UHGV virus genome: UHGV-0140516
Direction: 5' to 3' (one strand)
Origin: a virus
Length of the DNA: 8,707 bases
Shown piece by piece: positions 1,111 through 8,160 of this stretch. How positions within the stretch are numbered: position 1 is the first letter of the stretch; every line of letters begins with the position of its first letter. The position numbers and the translations under genes were made by a program. The notes beneath the pieces were generated by a model. That model was not told the origin of the DNA and did not search any database. It worked only from the letters and a program-made list of their open reading frames with translations.

Positions 1111-1320
1111 ATGCGCGAAATAAATGAAGATCGTGTAATCCGTGAAAAAGAATGCAGAGAGCTAACAGGCGTTTGCCGTACAACTCGTTATGAGATGGAA
1201 AAACAAGGCCGCTTTCCCTCCCGTATCAGTCTTGGAGGTCGTTCGGTTGGCTGGGTTAAGTCTGAGGTTATGGAATGGGTTAAAAGCCGGGATCGCATTA
1301 ATTCAGGAAAGGCAGCGTAA
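1111..1320 (+). CDS. alpA: AlpA-type (MerR-like HTH) prophage regulatory protein / excision-transcription regulator
   Basis: The 69-aa product MREINEDRVIREKECRELTGVCRTTRYEMEKQGRFPSRISLGGRSVGWVKSEVMEWVKSR shows the AlpA pattern (HTH, then FP-x-x-I-x-LG-x-R-SVGW-x-x-E-V-x-EW). ATG at 1111 is preceded by AGGG at 1101-1104. The track start at 1027 is GTG with AAGAGG abutting it at no spacing, so it is disfavoured. Confidence 0.75.
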   Translation: MREINEDRVIREKECRELTGVCRTTRYEMEKQGRFPSRISLGGRSVGWVKSEVMEWVKSRDRINSGKAA

Positions 1321-1710
1321 AGGGGAGCATATGACACATAAAACAAAGGCGACCGGGGGCGGTCGCCAATGGGAAAACACTAAACATAAGCCCGAACATC
1401 ATAGCGATTTGCTGGCTGGTGGGCAATGTGATCAGTGTACTGGCTTGCTGGTGGGCTATTCCTGCTCTTTAGCATCGCCATGCTGCGATGTTTTCCAGGT
1501 ATGCGATCCCATTTTTGTGCGCCTGTACTCTTTAAGGAACTTCTCAAGGACAAACGCACATGGTGCGAATCTCTCCGGTTCATGTTCGTTTACCGCATTT
1601 TTGCGTTGTTTTTTCTTGGATGAGGATAATTTCTTTAATGATTTGTCAGTCATCGTAGATACCTGTAACCCTGTGCGTCACAGTTCACCGCACCACGGCA
1701 CTGGTGATGG

Positions 1711-1890
1711 TTACTCCTGCTCTTTGGCCTTCCGGCGCTGGCGGCGTTTGATCTCGCCACGCATGGCTGTAACGATAAACTGCGCGTCTGTTTCGTTTTC
1801 CTCTTTGACCAAATTCATTTCGCTTAAAACTTCTAGAGGGATTCTAGCCGTTTTTTGTTGTGATTTGTTGTTGGTTGTACCCGTTGGCAT
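1711..1890 (-). CDS. Small Arc/Mnt-like ribbon-helix-helix DNA-binding protein (putative repressor), divergent from the replication operon
   Basis: Internal Met of the 115-aa minus ORF. ATG at 1890-1888 is preceded by a strong SD (AAGGAGG, complement of 1896-1902) at 5-6 nt spacing. The 59-aa product MPTGTTNNKSQQKTARIPLEVLSEMNLVKEENETDAQFIVTAMRGEIKRRQRRKAKEQE aligns with P22 Arc (RWPREVL / AEENGRSVNSEIYQRV versus RIPLEVL / KEENETDAQFIVTAMR). Basic C-terminal tail. Confidence 0.55.
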   Translation of the reverse strand: MPTGTTNNKSQQKTARIPLEVLSEMNLVKEENETDAQFIVTAMRGEIKRRQRRKAKEQE

Positions 1891-1951
1891 TACTGGCCTC
1901 CTTACTGTTAGGTGGCGTTCAGTATACGTAGAAAAAAAAATAAAAAAAGGC

Positions 1952-2002
1952 TTGAAGTGCAAGTCACCTAAAAGTAGCATAATCTTCAAAGGTGACTTGC
2001 AC
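1952..2002 (+). promoter_or_regulatory. Candidate sigma70 promoter for the replication operon, overlapped by a 13-bp perfect inverted repeat (putative operator)
   Basis: -35 TTGAAG at 1952-1957, 17-bp spacer, -10 TAGCAT at 1975-1980 (CATAAT at 1978-1983 as alternative). Inverted repeat GTGCAAGTCACCT at 1957-1969 and AGGTGACTTGCAC at 1990-2002 brackets the -10. On the opposite strand, a TATACT -10 (complement of 1921-1926) lies upstream of the RHH gene. Confidence 0.4.
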
Positions 2003-2083
2003 CTTAAAGACAAAGCCCCGCAAGTGTCGTTACCACTCGCAGGGCTTCTAACCACCAACGATAACGATAGTATCGAGGTAGCT

Positions 2084-2287
2084 ATGAGAAATCATACCAC
2101 ACACCCGCAAGGGCGGGACTCGCACAACCTGAATAAATACATCTGGCGTTTTATCGCCCTGAGCACGGCACAACCGCGCGTGATTACCATTGAGGCCACC
2201 AGCGAACAGGAAGCCCGCCAGCAATCCCCGGCTGGCTGCGTGATGGTATTCGCCGCCCGTATTCGTCAGGGGGTGTGCCATGCCTGA
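2084..2287 (+). CDS. Small hypothetical protein (67 aa), first gene of the replication operon; possibly of the short Icd-like family seen next to P4-type primases (unverified)
   Basis: ATG at 2084 with GAGG at 2075-2078. It is the 3' part of the long 1190..2287 track ORF, and only this part has a start and RBS. Product MRNHTTHPQGRDSHNLNKYIWRFIALSTAQPRVITIEATSEQEARQQSPAGCVMVFAARIRQGVCHA. Its stop overlaps the start of the next ORF (2280/2287). Confidence 0.5.
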   Translation: MRNHTTHPQGRDSHNLNKYIWRFIALSTAQPRVITIEATSEQEARQQSPAGCVMVFAARIRQGVCHA

Positions 2288-2600
2288 TATGTCAAATTAC
2301 CAGTACCTGATTAATCCGCATTTTAACTGTGAGCATGATATGGCTAAAAAGGTTTATTCCGCTGCGGATGGGGCTACTGACAATATATCAATGGCTGTTG
2401 CGTCAATTGGTAGCCTGATGTGGCATGCGTCAGAAAATGAGGACTATGACGAAAAGGCCATGCGCATTGATATGGGTAATATCGGTTTGTTACTGGCAAT
2501 GCTTGGGCAGTTTGATATTTCGTTACGGTGCACCATTGAAAATGCCACAGATGCATTAAATGCCATAAAGAAAGCGAATACTGATTCAAATCGGGGATAA
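2280..2600 (+). CDS. Hypothetical protein (106 aa), unknown function
   Basis: ATG at 2280 overlaps the upstream stop (translational coupling). AGGGGG lies about 10 nt upstream. No recognisable motif. Confidence 0.5.
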   Translation: MPDMSNYQYLINPHFNCEHDMAKKVYSAADGATDNISMAVASIGSLMWHASENEDYDEKAMRIDMGNIGLLLAMLGQFDISLRCTIENATDALNAIKKANTDSNRG

Positions 2601-2606
2601 ATAATC

Positions 2607-2906
2607 ATGAGAACATATTTATCTGGCTTGACTGCCAGCGGTTATGCACACCCCAAAATTATCCCCGGCGCTATTTATCTGGATAAGAACGGTAACAGAG
2701 TAACGGTAAAAGAACTGATGTTTGACCGTGTGTATTTTATTCGTGATGGATATTCATTTCATAGTTCGCTGAACGTGGAGATCTTTATTAGCAGATTCAG
2801 GCGGGAAATCCCGCTTTCCGGAAATAACCATGTGTCATGTCTGGATGTTGATAAAAAACTACAGGAACTGAAAAACATGATTGCCGCGTGGAGAGAGCAG
2901 AAATGA
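2607..2906 (+). CDS. Hypothetical protein (99 aa), unknown function
   Basis: Starts 7 nt after the upstream stop. Its TGA (2904-2906) overlaps the primase ATG (2903-2905) in an ATGA arrangement. No recognisable motif. Confidence 0.5.
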   Translation: MRTYLSGLTASGYAHPKIIPGAIYLDKNGNRVTVKELMFDRVYFIRDGYSFHSSLNVEIFISRFRREIPLSGNNHVSCLDVDKKLQELKNMIAAWREQK

Positions 2907-4720
2907 AAAAAGCGCCAAATTTAAAACACCAGCCGCGTGACAAAATGACGGAAGTCATCATTTTTGCGGGTAGTAATGCGTGGGCACATGCGAAGCAGTG
3001 GCAGGAACAGGACGGGCGACTGGCTGGCGATAACGTGCCTCCTGTCTGGCTTGGAGAGCAACAACTTGCCGAACTGGACAACCTGCAAATCGTACCGGAC
3101 GGACGCTATCGCGTGCGTCTCTATCAGGCGGGGTTATTGCGTCCGGGGCTTGTTAATACCATCGGGCAGAAACTGGCAGTGGCAGGTGTCAGGGATGCTG
3201 ATTATTACCCTGAAGGAATGCACAGCCAGAAACGGGAGAACTGGCGCGAATATCTGGAACGTGAACGGGCAGAGCAGGCGGAAAAGAAAAAGGTAGTTGA
3301 ACTGCCTGTAAAGAAAAAAGAGCGGGTAAAAGACGATAACGCTTCATCACTGGCGCTTAACCAGATGGGAGCAAGTCAACGCGGCGAAGTTCTCCTGGCA
3401 CATTATGGCGGTGAACTGGCGATTCATGCTGACTCTGACACTGTTCACCATTACAACGGCGTTGTATGGGAGCCAGTACAGGATAAAGAATTACAGCGAG
3501 CTATGGCACAGATTTTCATTGATGCGGAGATCAGCTATTCGCAGAACGCCATTAAATCGGCGGTCGATACCATGAAGTTAAGTTTGCCTGTAATGGGGAA
3601 TACAGCCCGTAACCTGATTGGATTCAGTAACGGGGTATTTGATACCAGAACAGGTAATTTTCGGGAGCATAACAAAAACGACTGGTTGTTAATTGCCAGT
3701 GAATTACCTTTCAGCCCACCAGCAGAGGGGGAAACGCTGGCAACACATGCGCCGAATTTCTGGAAGTGGTTACGCCGTTCGGTGGCTGAGAATGACCGCA
3801 AGGCGGATCGCGTACTGGCTGCATTATTCATGGTGCTGGCGAACCGGTACGACTGGCAGTTATTCATTGAGGTAACAGGTCCAGGGGGAAGTGGTAAAAG
3901 CGTGATGGCGGAGATTTGCACCATGCTGGCGGGTAAGGCCAACACAGTATCGGCAAGCATGAAGGCGCTGGAAGATGCAAGGGAACGCGCGTTAGTGGTT
4001 GGCTTTTCGCTGATTATCATGCCGGATATGACCCGCTACGCTGGTGATGGGGCAGGGATTAAGGCTATTACAGGCGGTGACAAGGTGGCAATTGACCCGA
4101 AACACAAAGCCCCCTACTCAACGCGTATTCCGGCAGTAGTGCTGGCGGTTAACAATAACGCCATGTCATTCAGTGACCGCAGCGGGGGGATCTCACGTCG
4201 TCGGGTGATATTCAATTTTTCGGAAGTTGTACCGGAGAACGAACGCGATCCAATGCTGGCGGAAAAAATAGAAGGTGAGCTGGCGGTAGTGATTCGCCAT
4301 CTGCTTACACGGTTTGCTGACCAGGACGAAGCCAGACGCCTGTTATATGAGCAGCAGAAATCTGAAGAAGCACTGGCGATAAAGCGAGAGGGGGATTCGC
4401 TGGTGGACTTCTGCGGCTATCTCATGGCGTCGGTAATGTGTGATGGCCTGTTAGTGGGTAATGCTGAAATTGTGCCATTCAGCCCACGCAGGTATCTCTA
4501 TCATGCCTATCTGGCTTATATGAGGGCACATGGGTTTGGTAAACCTGTAACACTGACGCGCTTCGGTAAAGATATGCCGGGGGCAATGGCGGAATATGGC
4601 AGGGAGTATATGAAACGGAAAACGAAGCACGGTTTTTGTTCAAACGTGACACTGACGGAGGAATCAGAAGACTGGATGCCATCATGTGTATCGGTCACTA
4701 ATGACGATAGTAAAAATTAA
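2903..4720 (+). CDS. P4-alpha-like primase/helicase replication protein (D5-type NTPase)
   Basis: 605-aa ORF. ATG at 2903 is preceded by GGAGAGAG at 2890-2897; the track start at 2888 is GTG. Walker A GPGGSGKS is encoded at 3878-3901, in frame. Followed immediately by the cognate-type iteron array. Large and well anchored. Confidence 0.85.
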   Translation: MKKAPNLKHQPRDKMTEVIIFAGSNAWAHAKQWQEQDGRLAGDNVPPVWLGEQQLAELDNLQIVPDGRYRVRLYQAGLLRPGLVNTIGQKLAVAGVRDADYYPEGMHSQKRENWREYLERERAEQAEKKKVVELPVKKKERVKDDNASSLALNQMGASQRGEVLLAHYGGELAIHADSDTVHHYNGVVWEPVQDKELQRAMAQIFIDAEISYSQNAIKSAVDTMKLSLPVMGNTARNLIGFSNGVFDTRTGNFREHNKNDWLLIASELPFSPPAEGETLATHAPNFWKWLRRSVAENDRKADRVLAALFMVLANRYDWQLFIEVTGPGGSGKSVMAEICTMLAGKANTVSASMKALEDARERALVVGFSLIIMPDMTRYAGDGAGIKAITGGDKVAIDPKHKAPYSTRIPAVVLAVNNNAMSFSDRSGGISRRRVIFNFSEVVPENERDPMLAEKIEGELAVVIRHLLTRFADQDEARRLLYEQQKSEEALAIKREGDSLVDFCGYLMASVMCDGLLVGNAEIVPFSPRRYLYHAYLAYMRAHGFGKPVTLTRFGKDMPGAMAEYGREYMKRKTKHGFCSNVTLTEESEDWMPSCVSVTNDDSKN

Positions 4721-4731
4721 ACTTATGGAAT

Positions 4732-4963
4732 AACTGTTCACCACTGTTCACCCTGTCATAAATATCTTTTATATCAGTATATTATAGGGTGAACAGTTAT
4801 TTATGAACTGTTCACCAAACTATTCACTGTTCACCTTTTTGATTGTTTATTGAGCTTCAAGGGTGAACAGTGGTGAACAGTTGGTGAATAGTTTTTGTGA
4901 AACTGTTCACCCCTTAACATTATGAATTAAAAGATAAAATATCAAAAGGTGAACAGGTGAAGG
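4732..4963. repeat. Replication-origin iteron array (P4 ori/crr type): at least 9 perfect TGTTCACC / GGTGAACA octamers in both orientations with AT-rich spacers
   Basis: Plus-orientation TGTTCACC at 4735-4742, 4745-4752, 4809-4816, 4828-4835 and 4904-4911. Minus-orientation GGTGAACA at 4788-4795, 4862-4869, 4872-4879 and 4948-4955. Degenerate copies at 4821-4828, 4883-4890 and 4956-4963. AT-rich stretches at 4760-4786 and 4918-4946 are candidate unwinding elements. TGTTCACC is the octamer I recall as the P4 alpha-protein binding iteron. Confidence 0.8.
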
Positions 4964-5007
4964 GTTAAAACGCAAAAATTTTAATTTACTGCTGTGAGAT
5001 AAAGCCT

Positions 5008-5686: not shown

Positions 5687-5710
5687 AAGCCGGAGAAGTC
5701 CGGCTTTTTT
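5687..5710 (+). terminator. Rho-independent terminator after the SSB-like gene
   Basis: Stem AGCCGGA (5688-5694), loop GAAG, stem TCCGGCT (5699-5705), then a T6 run ending at 5710. Confidence 0.7.
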
Positions 5711-5720
5711 ATGCCCCAAA

Positions 5721-5758
5721 AAAAGCCCGATAAGGTCAGAGGGTCTTATCGGGCTTTT
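5721..5758. terminator. Second hairpin with A-run and T-run flanks (possible bidirectional terminator)
   Basis: AAAAGCCCGATAAG (5721-5734), a 10-nt loop, then CTTATCGGGCTTTT (5745-5758). Confidence 0.5.
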
Positions 5759-5838
5759 GCATATGAGGCTTTTATCTAACAGTATGGTGACTACTGTTGC
5801 CGGAAATCATTTCACAATTTGCAACACAACTCAACATT

Positions 5839-7962: not shown

Positions 7963-7987
7963 AGGCCGGAGAAATCCGGCTTTTTTT
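7963..7987 (+). terminator. Rho-independent terminator ending the head-gene operon
   Basis: Stem GGCCGGA (7964-7970), loop GAAA, stem TCCGGC (7975-7980), then a T7 run (7981-7987). Near-duplicate of the terminator at 5687-5710. Confidence 0.75.
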
Positions 7988-8160
7988 ACGGGTCCTTTCC
8001 GGCATATGAACCCGTTACGGGGCGGCGACCTCGCGGTTTTTCGCTATTTATGAGCTTTTTCAGGGTGGTGGTGGTGGTTTTGTTGTTTGCTCTATCTCCA
8101 TGAATAAAAAGGGAAAGATAACACCAACACACCAACCTGAAACCTTGACCAAGTTGGGAT
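7988..8160 (+). other. cos: Lambda-type cos site: cosQ-like element, cosN with a 12-nt cohesive-end sequence identical to lambda, and a divergent cosB-like region
   Basis: ACGGGTCCTTTCCGG (7988-8002) matches the lambda right-end cosQ region. GTTACG then GGGCGGCGACCT (8020-8031) is the lambda cohesive-end sequence. CGCGGTTTTTCGCTATTTATGA (8032-8053) matches lambda left-end bases 13-35 with about one substitution. Downstream (8054-8160) differs from lambda cosB and contains GGTGGTGGTGGTGG (8065-8078) and the oppositely oriented CACCAACACACCAACC (8123-8138). Confidence 0.85.

What the first reader, a model, noticed from the sequence alone, without database searches (positions are those of the whole stretch)
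2084..2906. Three coupled small ORFs of unknown function leading into the primase gene
The ORFs of 67, 106 and 99 aa are joined by overlapping stop/start codons (2280/2287 and the ATGA at 2903-2906), which indicates co-translation with the primase. In P4-type elements the equivalent position holds small effector genes that act on the helper or host, such as the derepressor epsilon or Icd-like division inhibitors. These ORFs are therefore candidates for helper-interference or host-manipulation factors. Only the first shows a vague family resemblance, a W-R-F ... F-A-A-R pattern that I recall from Icd-like proteins.
Basis: inference. Interest (0 to 1): 0.5.

Follow-up and report, generated by a model that had tools for sequence, protein, structure and literature searches.

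The report
Early operon genes of a phage satellite
The three small genes are real and lead into the replication gene of an E. coli phage satellite, but this layout is the standard one for these islands, and two of the three belong to families that are already named.

Summary
ORFs of 67, 106 and 99 aa lie at 2084-2287, 2280-2600 and 2607-2906. The junctions are an 8-nt overlap, a 6-nt gap and an ATGA overlap with the replication gene. RefSeq annotates the same three genes in related E. coli islands.

The element is an EcCICFT073-type phage-inducible chromosomal island (PICI).
- ORF1 is a true Icd-like protein (NF033153, 69.8 bits). It is homologous to P1 Icd and to the C-terminal part of P4 Eta/Kil. 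It is the first cistron behind a conserved promoter and a structured leader. It is also nested at the end of a 318-codon open frame that starts just after alpA, as in P4.
- ORF2 belongs to a small family of acidic ~100-aa proteins of unknown function. It sits in a slot that holds different small genes in different islands.
- ORF3 is a DUF4222 protein of the RgdR family. RgdR is a characterised regulator of type III secretion and motility and sits in the same position in EcCIEDL933. In all 12 loci checked, the DUF4222 gene overlaps the replication gene by ATGA.

"Unknown function" is therefore only half true, and the P4 analogy is correct. No biochemical function of these three proteins was tested. 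Novelty is low to moderate.

The parts
1111..1320 (+). alpA (AlpA-family HTH regulator), the known master activator of Gram-negative PICIs
   Evidence: PF05930, 64.5 bits. Its role is described in PMC6092414.
1331..2287 (+). 318-codon open frame (Eta-like). It starts 11 nt after the alpA stop, behind the SD AGGGGAG. ORF1 is its last 67 codons.
   Evidence: There are no stops in this frame between alpA and ORF1, against 15 and 21 in the other two frames. Nine of 11 loci show the same pattern. EcCICFT073 nearly does: one stop just after alpA, then 433 open codons. P4 eta is built the same way. The N-terminal 251 aa match no Pfam or PHROG family.
1456..1653 (-). Small divergent gene (65 aa), conserved next to the YlcI/YnfO gene
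   Evidence: Homologous ORFs are present in L003. It is annotated in L002, L006, L008 and L021.
1711..1890 (-). YlcI/YnfO-family gene (59 aa), transcribed divergently from ORF1. Candidate repressor (inference).
   Evidence: NF041551, 60.6 bits against a cut-off of 30. It is annotated in 7 related loci. BLOSUM scores favour this frame over the antisense long ORF.
1952..1980 (+). Promoter-like site: -35 TTGAAG (1952-1957), 17-nt spacer, -10 TAGCAT (1975-1980). An A-tract lies upstream at 1932-1948.
   Evidence: The pattern TTGAMN-17/18-TAnnnT is found at the same place in 12 of 13 leaders and in EcCICFT073. The generic scanner missed it because it matches only 8 of 12 positions.
1955..2004 (.). 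Inverted repeat (arms 1955-1969 and 1990-2004, 14 of 15 complementary) that brackets the -10. Operator-like.
   Evidence: Other loci carry their own locus-specific repeats at the same place, usually ending in CACCTT.
2004..2089 (+). Conserved structured leader: hairpin 2013-2047, C-rich spacer 2048-2058, hairpin 2059-2075 abutting the SD GAGG (2075-2078), then the ORF1 ATG at 2084
   Evidence: Covariance model R1 scores 88.9 bits here and finds 15 copies in 14 loci. 81.8% of cells are paired, against 27-41% in the slid controls, and 11 pairs change on both sides. The region folds with z = -6.2. Rfam has no match.
2084..2287 (+). ORF1, an Icd-like protein (67 aa, pI 10.1). It is the first cistron, and its 3' end carries the SD for ORF2.
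   Evidence: NF033153, 69.8 bits. 36% identity to P1 Icd over 42 aa. The junction is conserved.
2280..2600 (+). ORF2, an acidic protein (106 aa, pI 4.6) of the phrog_15327/6805 family, predicted to be helical. It occupies the variable slot.
2607..2906 (+). ORF3, a DUF4222/RgdR-family protein (99 aa, pI 9.6), joined to the replication gene by an ATGA overlap
   Evidence: PF13973, 61 bits. 30% identity to RgdR over the full length. The ATGA overlap with the Rep gene is present in 12 of 12 loci.
2903..4720 (+). Replication protein: a 140-aa N-terminal domain followed by D5_N and a P4-alpha-like helicase part
4729..4966 (.). Iteron field (GGTGAACAG, at least 11 copies in both orientations). Likely the replication origin.

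Best explanation
The three ORFs are the promoter-proximal genes of the replication operon of an EcCICFT073-type PICI. They are three different things.

**ORF1**
- It is an Icd/Kil-type leader cistron.
- It is the first gene behind a conserved sigma-70-like promoter that sits inside operator-like repeats, and behind a conserved two-hairpin leader.
- It is also the 3' end of a long open frame that begins right after alpA. This is the nested eta/kil layout of P4.
- Its last codons carry the Shine-Dalgarno sequence of the next gene.
- Inferred role: ribosomes translating ORF1, either from its own start or coming from alpA, are needed to express the genes downstream. This ties replication to alpA and promoter activity. 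The peptide itself may also slow cell division, as P1 Icd does.

**ORF2**
- It is one of many interchangeable small accessory genes found in the slot between the Icd-like gene and the Rep-proximal gene.
- Its function is unknown. It is a candidate binder of a helper or host protein.

**ORF3**
- It is an RgdR-family small basic protein made in fixed linkage with the replication protein.
- It most likely binds DNA with low specificity and modulates transcription or replication.

**Shown here:** gene identity, family membership, synteny, junction anatomy, and conservation of the promoter, leader and long frame.
**Inferred:** translational coupling, gating of downstream expression, and every activity of the proteins.
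For: **Element type**
- The window carries int, alpA, primase, SSB, capsid, decoration protein, a phage-21-like cos and TerS.
- The gene order matches EcCICFT073.

**ORF1**
- NF033153 is hit by ORF1 (69.8 bits), P1 Icd (52.6), P4 Eta residues 85-132 (73.9) and Sakai ECs1577 (64.7).
- The P1 record states that icd is required for ant expression and that C4 RNA blocks its translation.
- PMC10111431 summarises P4: eta is coupled to the alpA homologue, its translation prevents termination, and Kil is a nested shorter form.
- The junction (an SD inside the ORF1 3' end, then ATGNNTRA) is conserved in 7 loci and resembles P4 eta/epsilon and P1 icd/ant1.
- The long open frame is documented, the promoter, and the leader.

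**Variable slot**
- 1716 of 5426 E. coli genomes match the region, but only 385 hold the whole block.
- In the listed spread of partial matches, homology ends within about 10 nt of the ORF1 stop.
- Loci L003, L007, L008, L009 and L021 hold 1-4 unrelated small ORFs in this slot.
- An ORF2 homologue with 40% identity follows an Icd-like ORF, with the same 8-nt overlap, in a different satellite.

**ORF3**
-.
- The ATGA overlap with Rep is present in 12 of 12 loci, whatever the catalytic part of the Rep protein.
Against: - There are no expression data.
- The promoter matches only 8 of 12 consensus positions, and the generic scan did not flag it.
- The long frame is interrupted in Sakai/EcCIEDL933 and in L006. 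EcCIEDL933 is mobilisable, so an unbroken long frame is not essential.
- The window lacks the C4/CI and isrK/seqA RNAs that control Icd-like genes in P1 and P4. The P1/P4 mechanism therefore cannot be transferred as a whole.
- ORF3 lacks the RGD motif that matters for RgdR activity.
- Both structure models are of low confidence (pLDDT about 53).
Confidence: 0.7

Rival explanations
1. ORF1-3 are helper- or host-manipulation effectors in the P4 sense. ORF1 would block cell division, ORF2 would be an epsilon-like derepressor or another anti-helper factor, and ORF3 would reprogram host transcription. Their position before the primase would reflect only early timing.
For: - P1 Icd is annotated as a cell-division inhibitor.
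- ORF2 holds the positional slot of P4 epsilon, with the same 8-nt overlap.
- RgdR changes LEE and motility expression.
- ORF2 is acidic and varies between islands, as binders of foreign proteins often do.
Against: - ORF2 does not match the epsilon family PF25738 or any PADLOC model.
- E. coli PICIs are induced by the helper through alpA. They are not known to derepress helpers.
- No phenotype data exist for any of the three proteins.
- This reading can hold together with the best explanation.
Confidence: 0.35
2. ORF3 (DUF4222) is a replication accessory factor for the Rep protein, analogous to P4 Cnr. It would bind the conserved 140-aa N-terminal domain of Rep or the ori iterons. The virulence effects of RgdR would then be side effects of non-specific DNA binding.
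For: - The ATGA overlap with Rep is present in 12 of 12 loci.
- All these Rep proteins share the N-terminal domain, although three different C-terminal engines follow it.
- P4 cnr lies directly upstream of alpha.
- RgdR bound control DNA as well as LEE1 DNA.
Against: - There is no sequence similarity to Cnr/DUF5375.
- L019 has the same Rep N-terminal domain but carries phrog_6610 in place of DUF4222.
- Flockhart et al. also report 63-aa truncated copies elsewhere, in OI-43/48 and SpLE1.
Confidence: 0.25
3. The small ORFs, or the long frame, are annotation artefacts with no protein product.
For: - The N-terminal 251 aa of the long frame match no family, and their sequence is no better conserved than the DNA.
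- Omega is 0.3-0.7 against very close relatives.
Against: - For ORF1-3 there are HMM matches above the curated cut-offs.
- Protein-level homologues exist at 23-40% identity in unrelated DNA contexts.
- Omega is 0.15-0.24 on diverged pairs.
- RgdR has genetic and biochemical data.
- The artefact reading stays possible only for the product of the long frame, not for its openness.
Confidence: 0.03

Closest known systems
EcCICFT073, the prototype E. coli PICI (Fillol-Salom 2018, PMC6092414), genes from the Icd-like gene to C1493
   Same: - The gene order is identical: int - alpA - two small minus-strand genes (one YlcI/YnfO) - Icd-like - small ORFs - DUF4222 - primase - SSB - capsid - decoration protein.
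- The Icd-like protein is nearly identical in sequence.
- The promoter, leader and long open frame are the same.
   Different: - EcCICFT073 has four other small ORFs in the variable slot instead of ORF2.
- Its DUF4222 protein is of the RgdR subtype and has the RGD motif.
- Its Icd/next-gene overlap is ATGA, not 8 nt.
P4 left operon: orf88(vis) - eta/kil - epsilon - orf151 - cnr - alpha
   Same: - An alpA-like gene is followed at once by a long open frame whose C-terminus is the Icd-like domain.
- There is an 8-nt overlap into the next small gene.
- A string of small genes ends at the replication gene.
   Different: - P4 carries the CI (C4 family) and seqA (isrK family) immunity RNAs inside eta. 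The window has neither and instead has a divergent pair of small protein genes.
- ORF2 and ORF3 are unrelated to epsilon, orf151 and cnr.
P1 immI operon: c4 - icd - ant1/ant2
   Same: The homologous Icd domain is encoded by the first cistron, and the next gene starts at an overlapping ATGA behind a G-rich SD.
   Different: - P1 Icd has an extra C-terminal tail.
- The downstream gene is an antirepressor.
- Control is by C4 antisense RNA, which the window lacks.
RgdR (ECs1581) of O157:H7 OI-51/Sp7, which is the cf-PICI EcCIEDL933 (Flockhart 2012, PMC3378721)
   Same: - Both are 99 aa and basic, and both match PF13973.
- They align over the full length.
- The position and the ATGA overlap with the replication gene are identical.
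   Different: - Identity is only 30%.
- Residues 20-22 are PGA, not RGD.
- Whether ORF3 regulates LEE, motility or anything else is untested.

Membership tests
Icd-like proteins (NCBIfam NF033153; P1 Icd, P4 Eta/Kil) | Scores above the curated cut-off of the family model | tested here: met
   69.8 bits against a cut-off of 25. P1 Icd scores 52.6 and P4 Eta residues 85-132 score 73.9 on the same model.
Icd-like proteins (NCBIfam NF033153; P1 Icd, P4 Eta/Kil) | Direct pairwise similarity to P1 Icd | tested here: met
   36% identity over 42 aa, E 3.5e-4 in a 14-sequence database. The Sakai homologue gives 42% over 45 aa.
Icd-like proteins (NCBIfam NF033153; P1 Icd, P4 Eta/Kil) | First cistron, with the next gene's SD and start overlapping its 3' end | tested here: met
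   CAGGGGGTGTGCC-ATGCCTGA. The same design is found in 7 loci, P4 and P1.
Icd-like proteins (NCBIfam NF033153; P1 Icd, P4 Eta/Kil) | Preceded by a C4/CI antisense RNA and its target sites | tested here: not met
   Rfam C4 and isrK give no match in the window even at E <= 1. The same models find P4 and the related islands L008 and L011.
Icd-like proteins (NCBIfam NF033153; P1 Icd, P4 Eta/Kil) | Inhibits host cell division, or kills when expressed | not testable with these tools
   Needs expression in E. coli.
DUF4222 / RgdR family | Pfam PF13973 domain above the gathering score | tested here: met
   61 bits against 27, residues 16-67. RgdR scores 82 bits.
DUF4222 / RgdR family | Full-length 99-aa architecture (beta core plus C-terminal helix) that aligns with RgdR | tested here: met
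   30% identity over residues 1-99, E 2e-11. The alignment is nearly gap-free.
DUF4222 / RgdR family | RGD motif at residues 20-22, which matters for T3SS activation | tested here: not met
   ORF3 has P-G-A at the aligned positions. The motif is described.
DUF4222 / RgdR family | Activates LEE1, represses motility, binds DNA | not testable with these tools
   Experimental properties of RgdR.
P4 epsilon (PF25738, Derepression), considered for ORF2 | Match to the family model | tested here: not met
   P4 epsilon scores 170 bits. ORF2 has no Pfam hit at E <= 1.
P4 Cnr (PF17345, DUF5375), considered for ORF2 and ORF3 | Match to the family model | tested here: not met
   Cnr scores 210.9 bits. Neither ORF2 nor ORF3 matches it.
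EcCICFT073-type PICI (the element as a whole) | int - alpA - replication module - ori - packaging genes in one orientation, about 10-15 kb, at a specific att site | tested here: met
   Window gene content. The full island lies between cspD and clpS in L002. It is collinear with EcCICFT073. Iterons follow the Rep gene.
Capsid-forming PICI (cf-PICI) | Own portal, protease, head-tail connectors, HNH and large terminase | tested here: not met
   The closest full-length relative, L002, ends one ORF after TerS. Sakai Sp7/EcCIEDL933, by contrast, carries all of these genes.

The most novel reading that the evidence does not exclude
Gram-negative PICIs may carry a P4-like two-promoter switch that has not been described for them.
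- A divergent YlcI/YnfO-type small repressor and its locus-specific operators would control an internal promoter.
- A conserved structured leader and the Icd-like ORF would gate expression of the replication operon. Translation of a long alpA-coupled frame would keep read-through transcripts alive.
- Within this operon, the slot after the Icd-like gene would be a recombination-delimited cassette site for anti-helper or anti-host effectors; ORF2 would be one of them.
- The DUF4222/RgdR proteins would primarily be Rep-coupled replication or transcription modulators, and their effects on EHEC virulence would be secondary.
Probability: 0.3. Interest if true: 0.55.

Novelty: new member of a known kind. 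Interest (0 to 1): 0.33.

Why it matters
**For the finding itself:** little. It is the standard early region of an EcCICFT073-type satellite, already annotated in RefSeq, and two of its three genes belong to named families.

**For the wider picture:**
- The paper that defined Gram-negative PICIs reported only Int, AlpA and Pri-Rep as shared with P4, and called the existence of a repressor unclear. Here the Icd/Eta module, its nesting behind alpA and its coupling junction are also shared with P4.
- A divergent small-gene and operator module is a concrete candidate for the missing repressor.
- RgdR, known only as an EHEC virulence regulator, turns out to be a fixed, Rep-coupled component of these satellites. 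This suggests that its native role lies in the satellite life cycle.

Tried and rejected
- **Rfam:** a scan at E <= 1 and a gathering-threshold scan found no C4/CI or isrK/seqA RNA in the window. P1/P4-type antisense control is rejected for this island.
- **PDB sequence searches:** profile searches for ORF2 and ORF3 found nothing significant.
- **PADLOC:** no defence-system match for any ORF.
- **GenBank phages:** tblastn found no ORF2 or ORF3 homologue, and ORF1 hit only one 16.5-kb satellite-like record.
- **The search for related loci on genome contigs** returned only 2 loci, because the peptide patterns were too specific. I built the comparative set from the E. coli collection and from the look-up of encoding contigs instead.
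- **RNAalifold** on the MAFFT alignment missed the leader hairpins because the loops were out of register. I replaced it with a covariance model and pair counts.
- **Hairpin 1 as a terminator:** I first read hairpin 1 plus the T-run on the minus strand as a terminator or antisense-RNA end. I dropped this once the comparison showed that the -35 and -10 hexamers sit inside the repeat and that the A-tract lies upstream of the -35.
- **cf-PICI:** this was my first guess for the element. I rejected it after looking at L002 and EcCICFT073.
- **Rep versus L008 dN/dS** is invalid, because indels put the sequences out of register. I ignored it.
Full report
**1. Observation**

The window holds ORF1 at 2084-2287 (67 aa), ORF2 at 2280-2600 (106 aa) and ORF3 at 2607-2906 (99 aa) on the + strand. 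A 605-aa replication gene follows, starting at ATG 2903.
- ORF1 and ORF2 overlap by 8 nt (ATGCCTGA).
- ORF2 and ORF3 are separated by 6 nt, with GGGGA 9-13 nt before the ATG.
- ORF3 and the replication gene overlap by ATGA.

The description is correct, except that only two of the three junctions are overlaps. RefSeq annotates the same three CDS, with the same lengths, in related E. coli islands. Against very close relatives the ORFs show omega 0.3-0.7 on a handful of substitutions. Against diverged relatives omega is 0.24 for ORF2 (87 substitutions), 0.15 for ORF3 (35 substitutions) and 0.07-0.42 for ORF1. The primase gives 0.055. All three are real genes, less constrained than the primase.

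**2. Context**

The window carries these features:
- the C-terminus of an integrase;
- alpA (1111-1320; PF05930);
- two small minus-strand genes (1456-1653, and 1711-1890 of the YlcI/YnfO family);
- the three ORFs;
- a D5_N/Pox_D5 replication protein;
- an iteron field (4729-4966);
- an SSB, a lambda-E-like major capsid protein and a head decoration protein;
- a phage-21-like cos stretch (7984-8065);
- a small terminase subunit.

A 90%-identical island lies between cspD and clpS in strain 23CRST038 and ends one ORF after TerS. The order is collinear with EcCICFT073, the prototype E. coli PICI. It is not a capsid-forming PICI, because there is no portal, protease or large terminase. Sakai Sp7/EcCIEDL933 does carry those genes.

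**3. ORF1**

ORF1 scores 69.8 bits on NCBIfam NF033153 'host cell division inhibitor Icd-like' (cut-off 25). The same model is hit by genuine P1 Icd (52.6 bits), by residues 85-132 of the old P4 'cI' ORF, which is Eta/Kil (73.9 bits), and by Sakai ECs1577 (64.7 bits). Direct blastp of ORF1 against P1 Icd gives 36% identity over 42 aa. The PHROG label 'transcriptional repressor' probably goes back to the historical P4 'cI protein' annotation still present in the P4 record (my inference). The real CI is an RNA.

*The junction.* The 3' end of ORF1 reads CAGGGGGTGTGCC-ATG-CC-TGA. It carries a Shine-Dalgarno sequence for ORF2, followed by an 8-nt start/stop overlap. The same design is present in L002, L003, L006, L007, L009 and L012. 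P4 eta/epsilon has GGAGGTGTCCC-GTG-CG-TAA, and P1 icd/ant1 has GGGGGGTTT-ATGA. The P1 record says icd is 'apparently required for expression of ant' and that C4 RNA represses icd/ant translation.

*The long frame.* ORF1 is also the last 67 codons of a much longer open frame. An ATG at 1331 lies 11 nt after the alpA stop, behind AGGGGAG, and opens a 318-codon frame that runs to 2287.
- Between alpA and the ORF1 ATG this frame has 0 stops. The other two frames have 15 and 21.
- Nine of 11 related loci show the same pattern: 0 stops over 680-1270 nt, against 10-26 in the other frames, with an ATG or GTG 5-14 nt after the alpA stop.
- EcCICFT073 has a 433-codon version.
- P4 is built the same way: the eta frame opens with ATGs that overlap the orf88 stop, and it has no stop up to the Icd domain.
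- PMC10111431 summarises the P4 biology. Eta is coupled to the alpA homologue, its translation prevents termination, and Kil is a nested shorter product that kills.
- The N-terminal 251 aa of the window's long frame match no family. Over the stretch antisense to the YlcI/YnfO gene, BLOSUM scores consistently favour the minus-strand protein (for example 141 against 90).

I therefore read the long frame as kept open for translation rather than for its product. It is broken in Sakai/EcCIEDL933 and in L006, so it is not indispensable.

**4. Promoter and leader in front of ORF1**

*Promoter.* Upstream of ORF1 there is a -35 TTGAAG (1952-1957), a 17-nt spacer and a -10 TAGCAT (1975-1980), with an A-tract at 1932-1948. 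A TTGAMN-17/18-TAnnnT arrangement sits at the same place in 12 of 13 leaders and in EcCICFT073. The generic scan missed it because it matches only 8 of 12 positions. The hexamers are embedded in repeats that differ from locus to locus. In the window this is an inverted repeat, 1955-1969 with 1990-2004. That is what operators of a locus-specific repressor would look like (inference).

*Leader.* Downstream lies a conserved leader (2004-2089). It consists of a hairpin (2013-2047), a C-rich spacer, and a second hairpin (2059-2075) that abuts the SD of ORF1. The region folds far better than shuffles (z = -6.2). A covariance model built from 14 leaders finds 15 copies in 14 loci (window 88.9 bits). 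On that alignment:
- 81.8% of cells pair, against 27-41% when the partners are slid;
- 11 of 18 pairs change on both sides, against 2-4 in the slid controls;
- 0 of 500 shuffles reach the observed values.

The alignment was fitted to the model, so these numbers lean towards the structure. Rfam has no match for this element.

*No antisense-RNA cassette here.* Rfam C4 and isrK find P4's CI and seqA and find both RNAs in the related islands L008 and L011, directly before the Icd domain. They find nothing in the window, L001-L003, L006, L007, L009, L010, L012 or L017-L020. In L008 the ORF that starts at the leader ATG reads MRNHTTHPQGRDSHNLNK, then 96 aa that span the isrK/C4 cassette, then the Icd domain. 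The window's ORF1 has the same first 18 residues joined directly to the Icd domain. So the window carries a variant of the same gene without the antisense-RNA cassette.

**5. ORF2 and the variable slot**

*The slot.* A blastn of 1890-2910 against 5426 complete E. coli genomes hits 1716 genomes, but only 385 hold the whole block. In the listed spread of the remaining matches, homology covers roughly 2006-2282, which is the leader plus ORF1, and stops within about 10 nt of the ORF1 stop. Between the Icd-like gene and the DUF4222 gene, other islands hold:
- one unrelated ORF (L007);
- two (L009);
- three (L003, L008);
- four (EcCICFT073).

All those scanned belong to PHROGs of unknown function. 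The ORF1 3' end is therefore a module boundary, and ORF2 sits in a swappable slot.

*The ORF2 family.* The family is small. A word-indexed search found only close relatives (19 proteins, the most distant 65% identical). A full profile search of 1.84 billion representatives found 22. About ten of these are ~100-aa proteins with 23-40% identity to ORF2, sharing a core motif IGxLM..A....Y......DM..IG.L. All members hit phrog_15327 and phrog_6805. They are acidic, with pI around 4.6. AlphaFold gives a two-helix hairpin at low confidence (pLDDT 53.6). There is no Pfam, NCBIfam, PADLOC, PDB or GenBank-phage match.

*Genomic contexts of ORF2 relatives:*
- P0178 (40% identical) follows an Icd-like ORF with the same 8-nt overlap, in an int-HTH-...-AAA_25 helicase-capsid satellite.
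- P0190 sits two genes after an Icd-like ORF and two genes before a D5-type primase.
- P0181 is in an AlpA/AntA/Bro-N island.
- P0184 is in a prophage early region next to CI/Cro-like genes.

ORF2 takes the positional place of P4 epsilon but is unrelated to it.

**6. ORF3**

ORF3 matches PF13973 (DUF4222) at 61 bits. The one characterised member of this family is RgdR (ECs1581) of O157:H7. It is 99 aa with pI about 10. It activates LEE1 and type III secretion, represses motility, and binds DNA without specificity in EMSA. ECs1581 lies in Sp7/OI-51, which carries capsid, protease, portal and terminase genes. By its size, location and gene content I take it to be the cf-PICI EcCIEDL933. ECs1581 overlaps the replication gene ECs1582 by ATGA.

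ORF3 aligns with RgdR from end to end (30% identity, E 2e-11). An alignment of ten proteins separates a window subtype from an RgdR subtype. The positions of the RGD motif read PGA in ORF3.

In 12 of 12 loci examined, the DUF4222 gene overlaps by ATGA a replication gene of 470 aa or more. Those replication proteins share a ~140-aa N-terminal domain (phrog_2850), but three different C-terminal engines follow it: a P4-alpha-like helicase part, a 710-aa type, and a RepA/AAA_25 helicase. In L012 and L019 the Rep-proximal slot holds phrog_6610 instead.

**7. Mechanism**

*Shown here:* the identities, the synteny, the junction anatomy, and the conservation of the promoter, leader and long frame.

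*Known from the literature:* alpA is induced by the helper and is required for expression of the island's genes. AlpA over-expression alone drives excision and replication. A repressor has not been identified.

*Inferred model:*
- The replication operon can be reached from two directions, as in P4. One is an internal promoter at about 1952-1980, probably under a locus-specific repressor. The divergent YlcI/YnfO gene is the obvious candidate. The other is read-through from alpA, with the long frame keeping ribosomes on the RNA.
- In both cases ribosomes finishing the Icd-like ORF would hand over to ORF2. The chain would then continue through ORF3 into the replication gene.
- The Icd-like peptide may also delay cell division, as P1 Icd does.
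- ORF2 would be an accessory factor of unknown target.
- ORF3 would be a small basic DNA-binding modulator, made in fixed linkage with the replication protein. A Cnr-like role in replication is possible.

**8. Comparison and novelty**

Everything about the three ORFs fits the known architecture of E. coli PICIs and of P4. PMC10111431 already groups the small genes between the integration and replication modules into a 'Bro zone' and notes P4-like eta/CI features in some PICIs. The finding is thus a new member of a known kind.

The side results are less obvious, and I did not find them stated in the papers I read:
- the Icd/Eta module, with its nested long frame, is shared between P4 and the prototype PICIs;
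- a conserved structured leader is absent from Rfam;
- there is a sharp module boundary at the ORF1 stop;
- DUF4222/RgdR is invariably coupled to the replication gene;
- a divergent small-gene and operator module could be the missing repressor.

None of these has experimental support here.

Noticed in passing
window 1331-2287: A 318-codon open frame starts 11 nt after the alpA stop, behind a good SD, and runs antisense through two minus-strand genes. ORF1 is its C-terminus. The same holds in 9 of 11 related loci, largely in EcCICFT073 (one stop just after alpA, then 433 open codons), and in P4 (eta). The N-terminal 251 aa match no protein family.
   Followed up: yes
window 1456-1653 (-), 1711-1890 (-), 1920-2005: A YlcI/YnfO-family gene and a second small gene are transcribed divergently from ORF1. 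Promoter-like hexamers lie back to back, with locus-specific repeats around the rightward promoter. This could be the repressor module that has not been identified in Gram-negative PICIs.
   Followed up: partly
window 2004-2089: A conserved two-hairpin leader lies in front of the Icd-like ORF. There are 15 copies in 14 loci, with compensatory base changes. No Rfam family matches it.
   Followed up: yes
L008 4185-4370; L011 4353-4541: Related islands carry isrK-like and C4-like RNAs between the leader ATG and the Icd domain. The window's ORF1 is the same ORF without that cassette, and its first 18 residues are identical.
   Followed up: yes
window 2275-2290: In the listed partial matches to other E. 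coli genomes, homology to the window ends within about 10 nt of the ORF1 stop / ORF2 start. This marks a module boundary for exchange of the downstream small genes.
   Followed up: partly
window 2903-4720: The 'primase' aligns with P4 alpha only from residue 145 onward (P4 alpha residues 320-771). It therefore lacks the N-terminal part of P4 alpha. In its place is a ~140-aa domain (phrog_2850), which is also found on replication proteins with two other C-terminal engines.
   Followed up: partly
window 4729-4966: At least 11 copies of GGTGAACAG lie in both orientations directly after the replication gene. This is probably the origin of replication.
   Followed up: partly
window 7984-8065: An 82-nt stretch is 86-87% identical to the cos/terminase-binding region of phage 21 and relatives. 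It lies just upstream of the island's small terminase gene.
   Followed up: no
window 5687-5781: Two adjacent GC-rich hairpins with U-runs follow the SSB gene. They were picked up as weak sRNA-like Rfam hits on both strands and are probably a bidirectional terminator.
   Followed up: no
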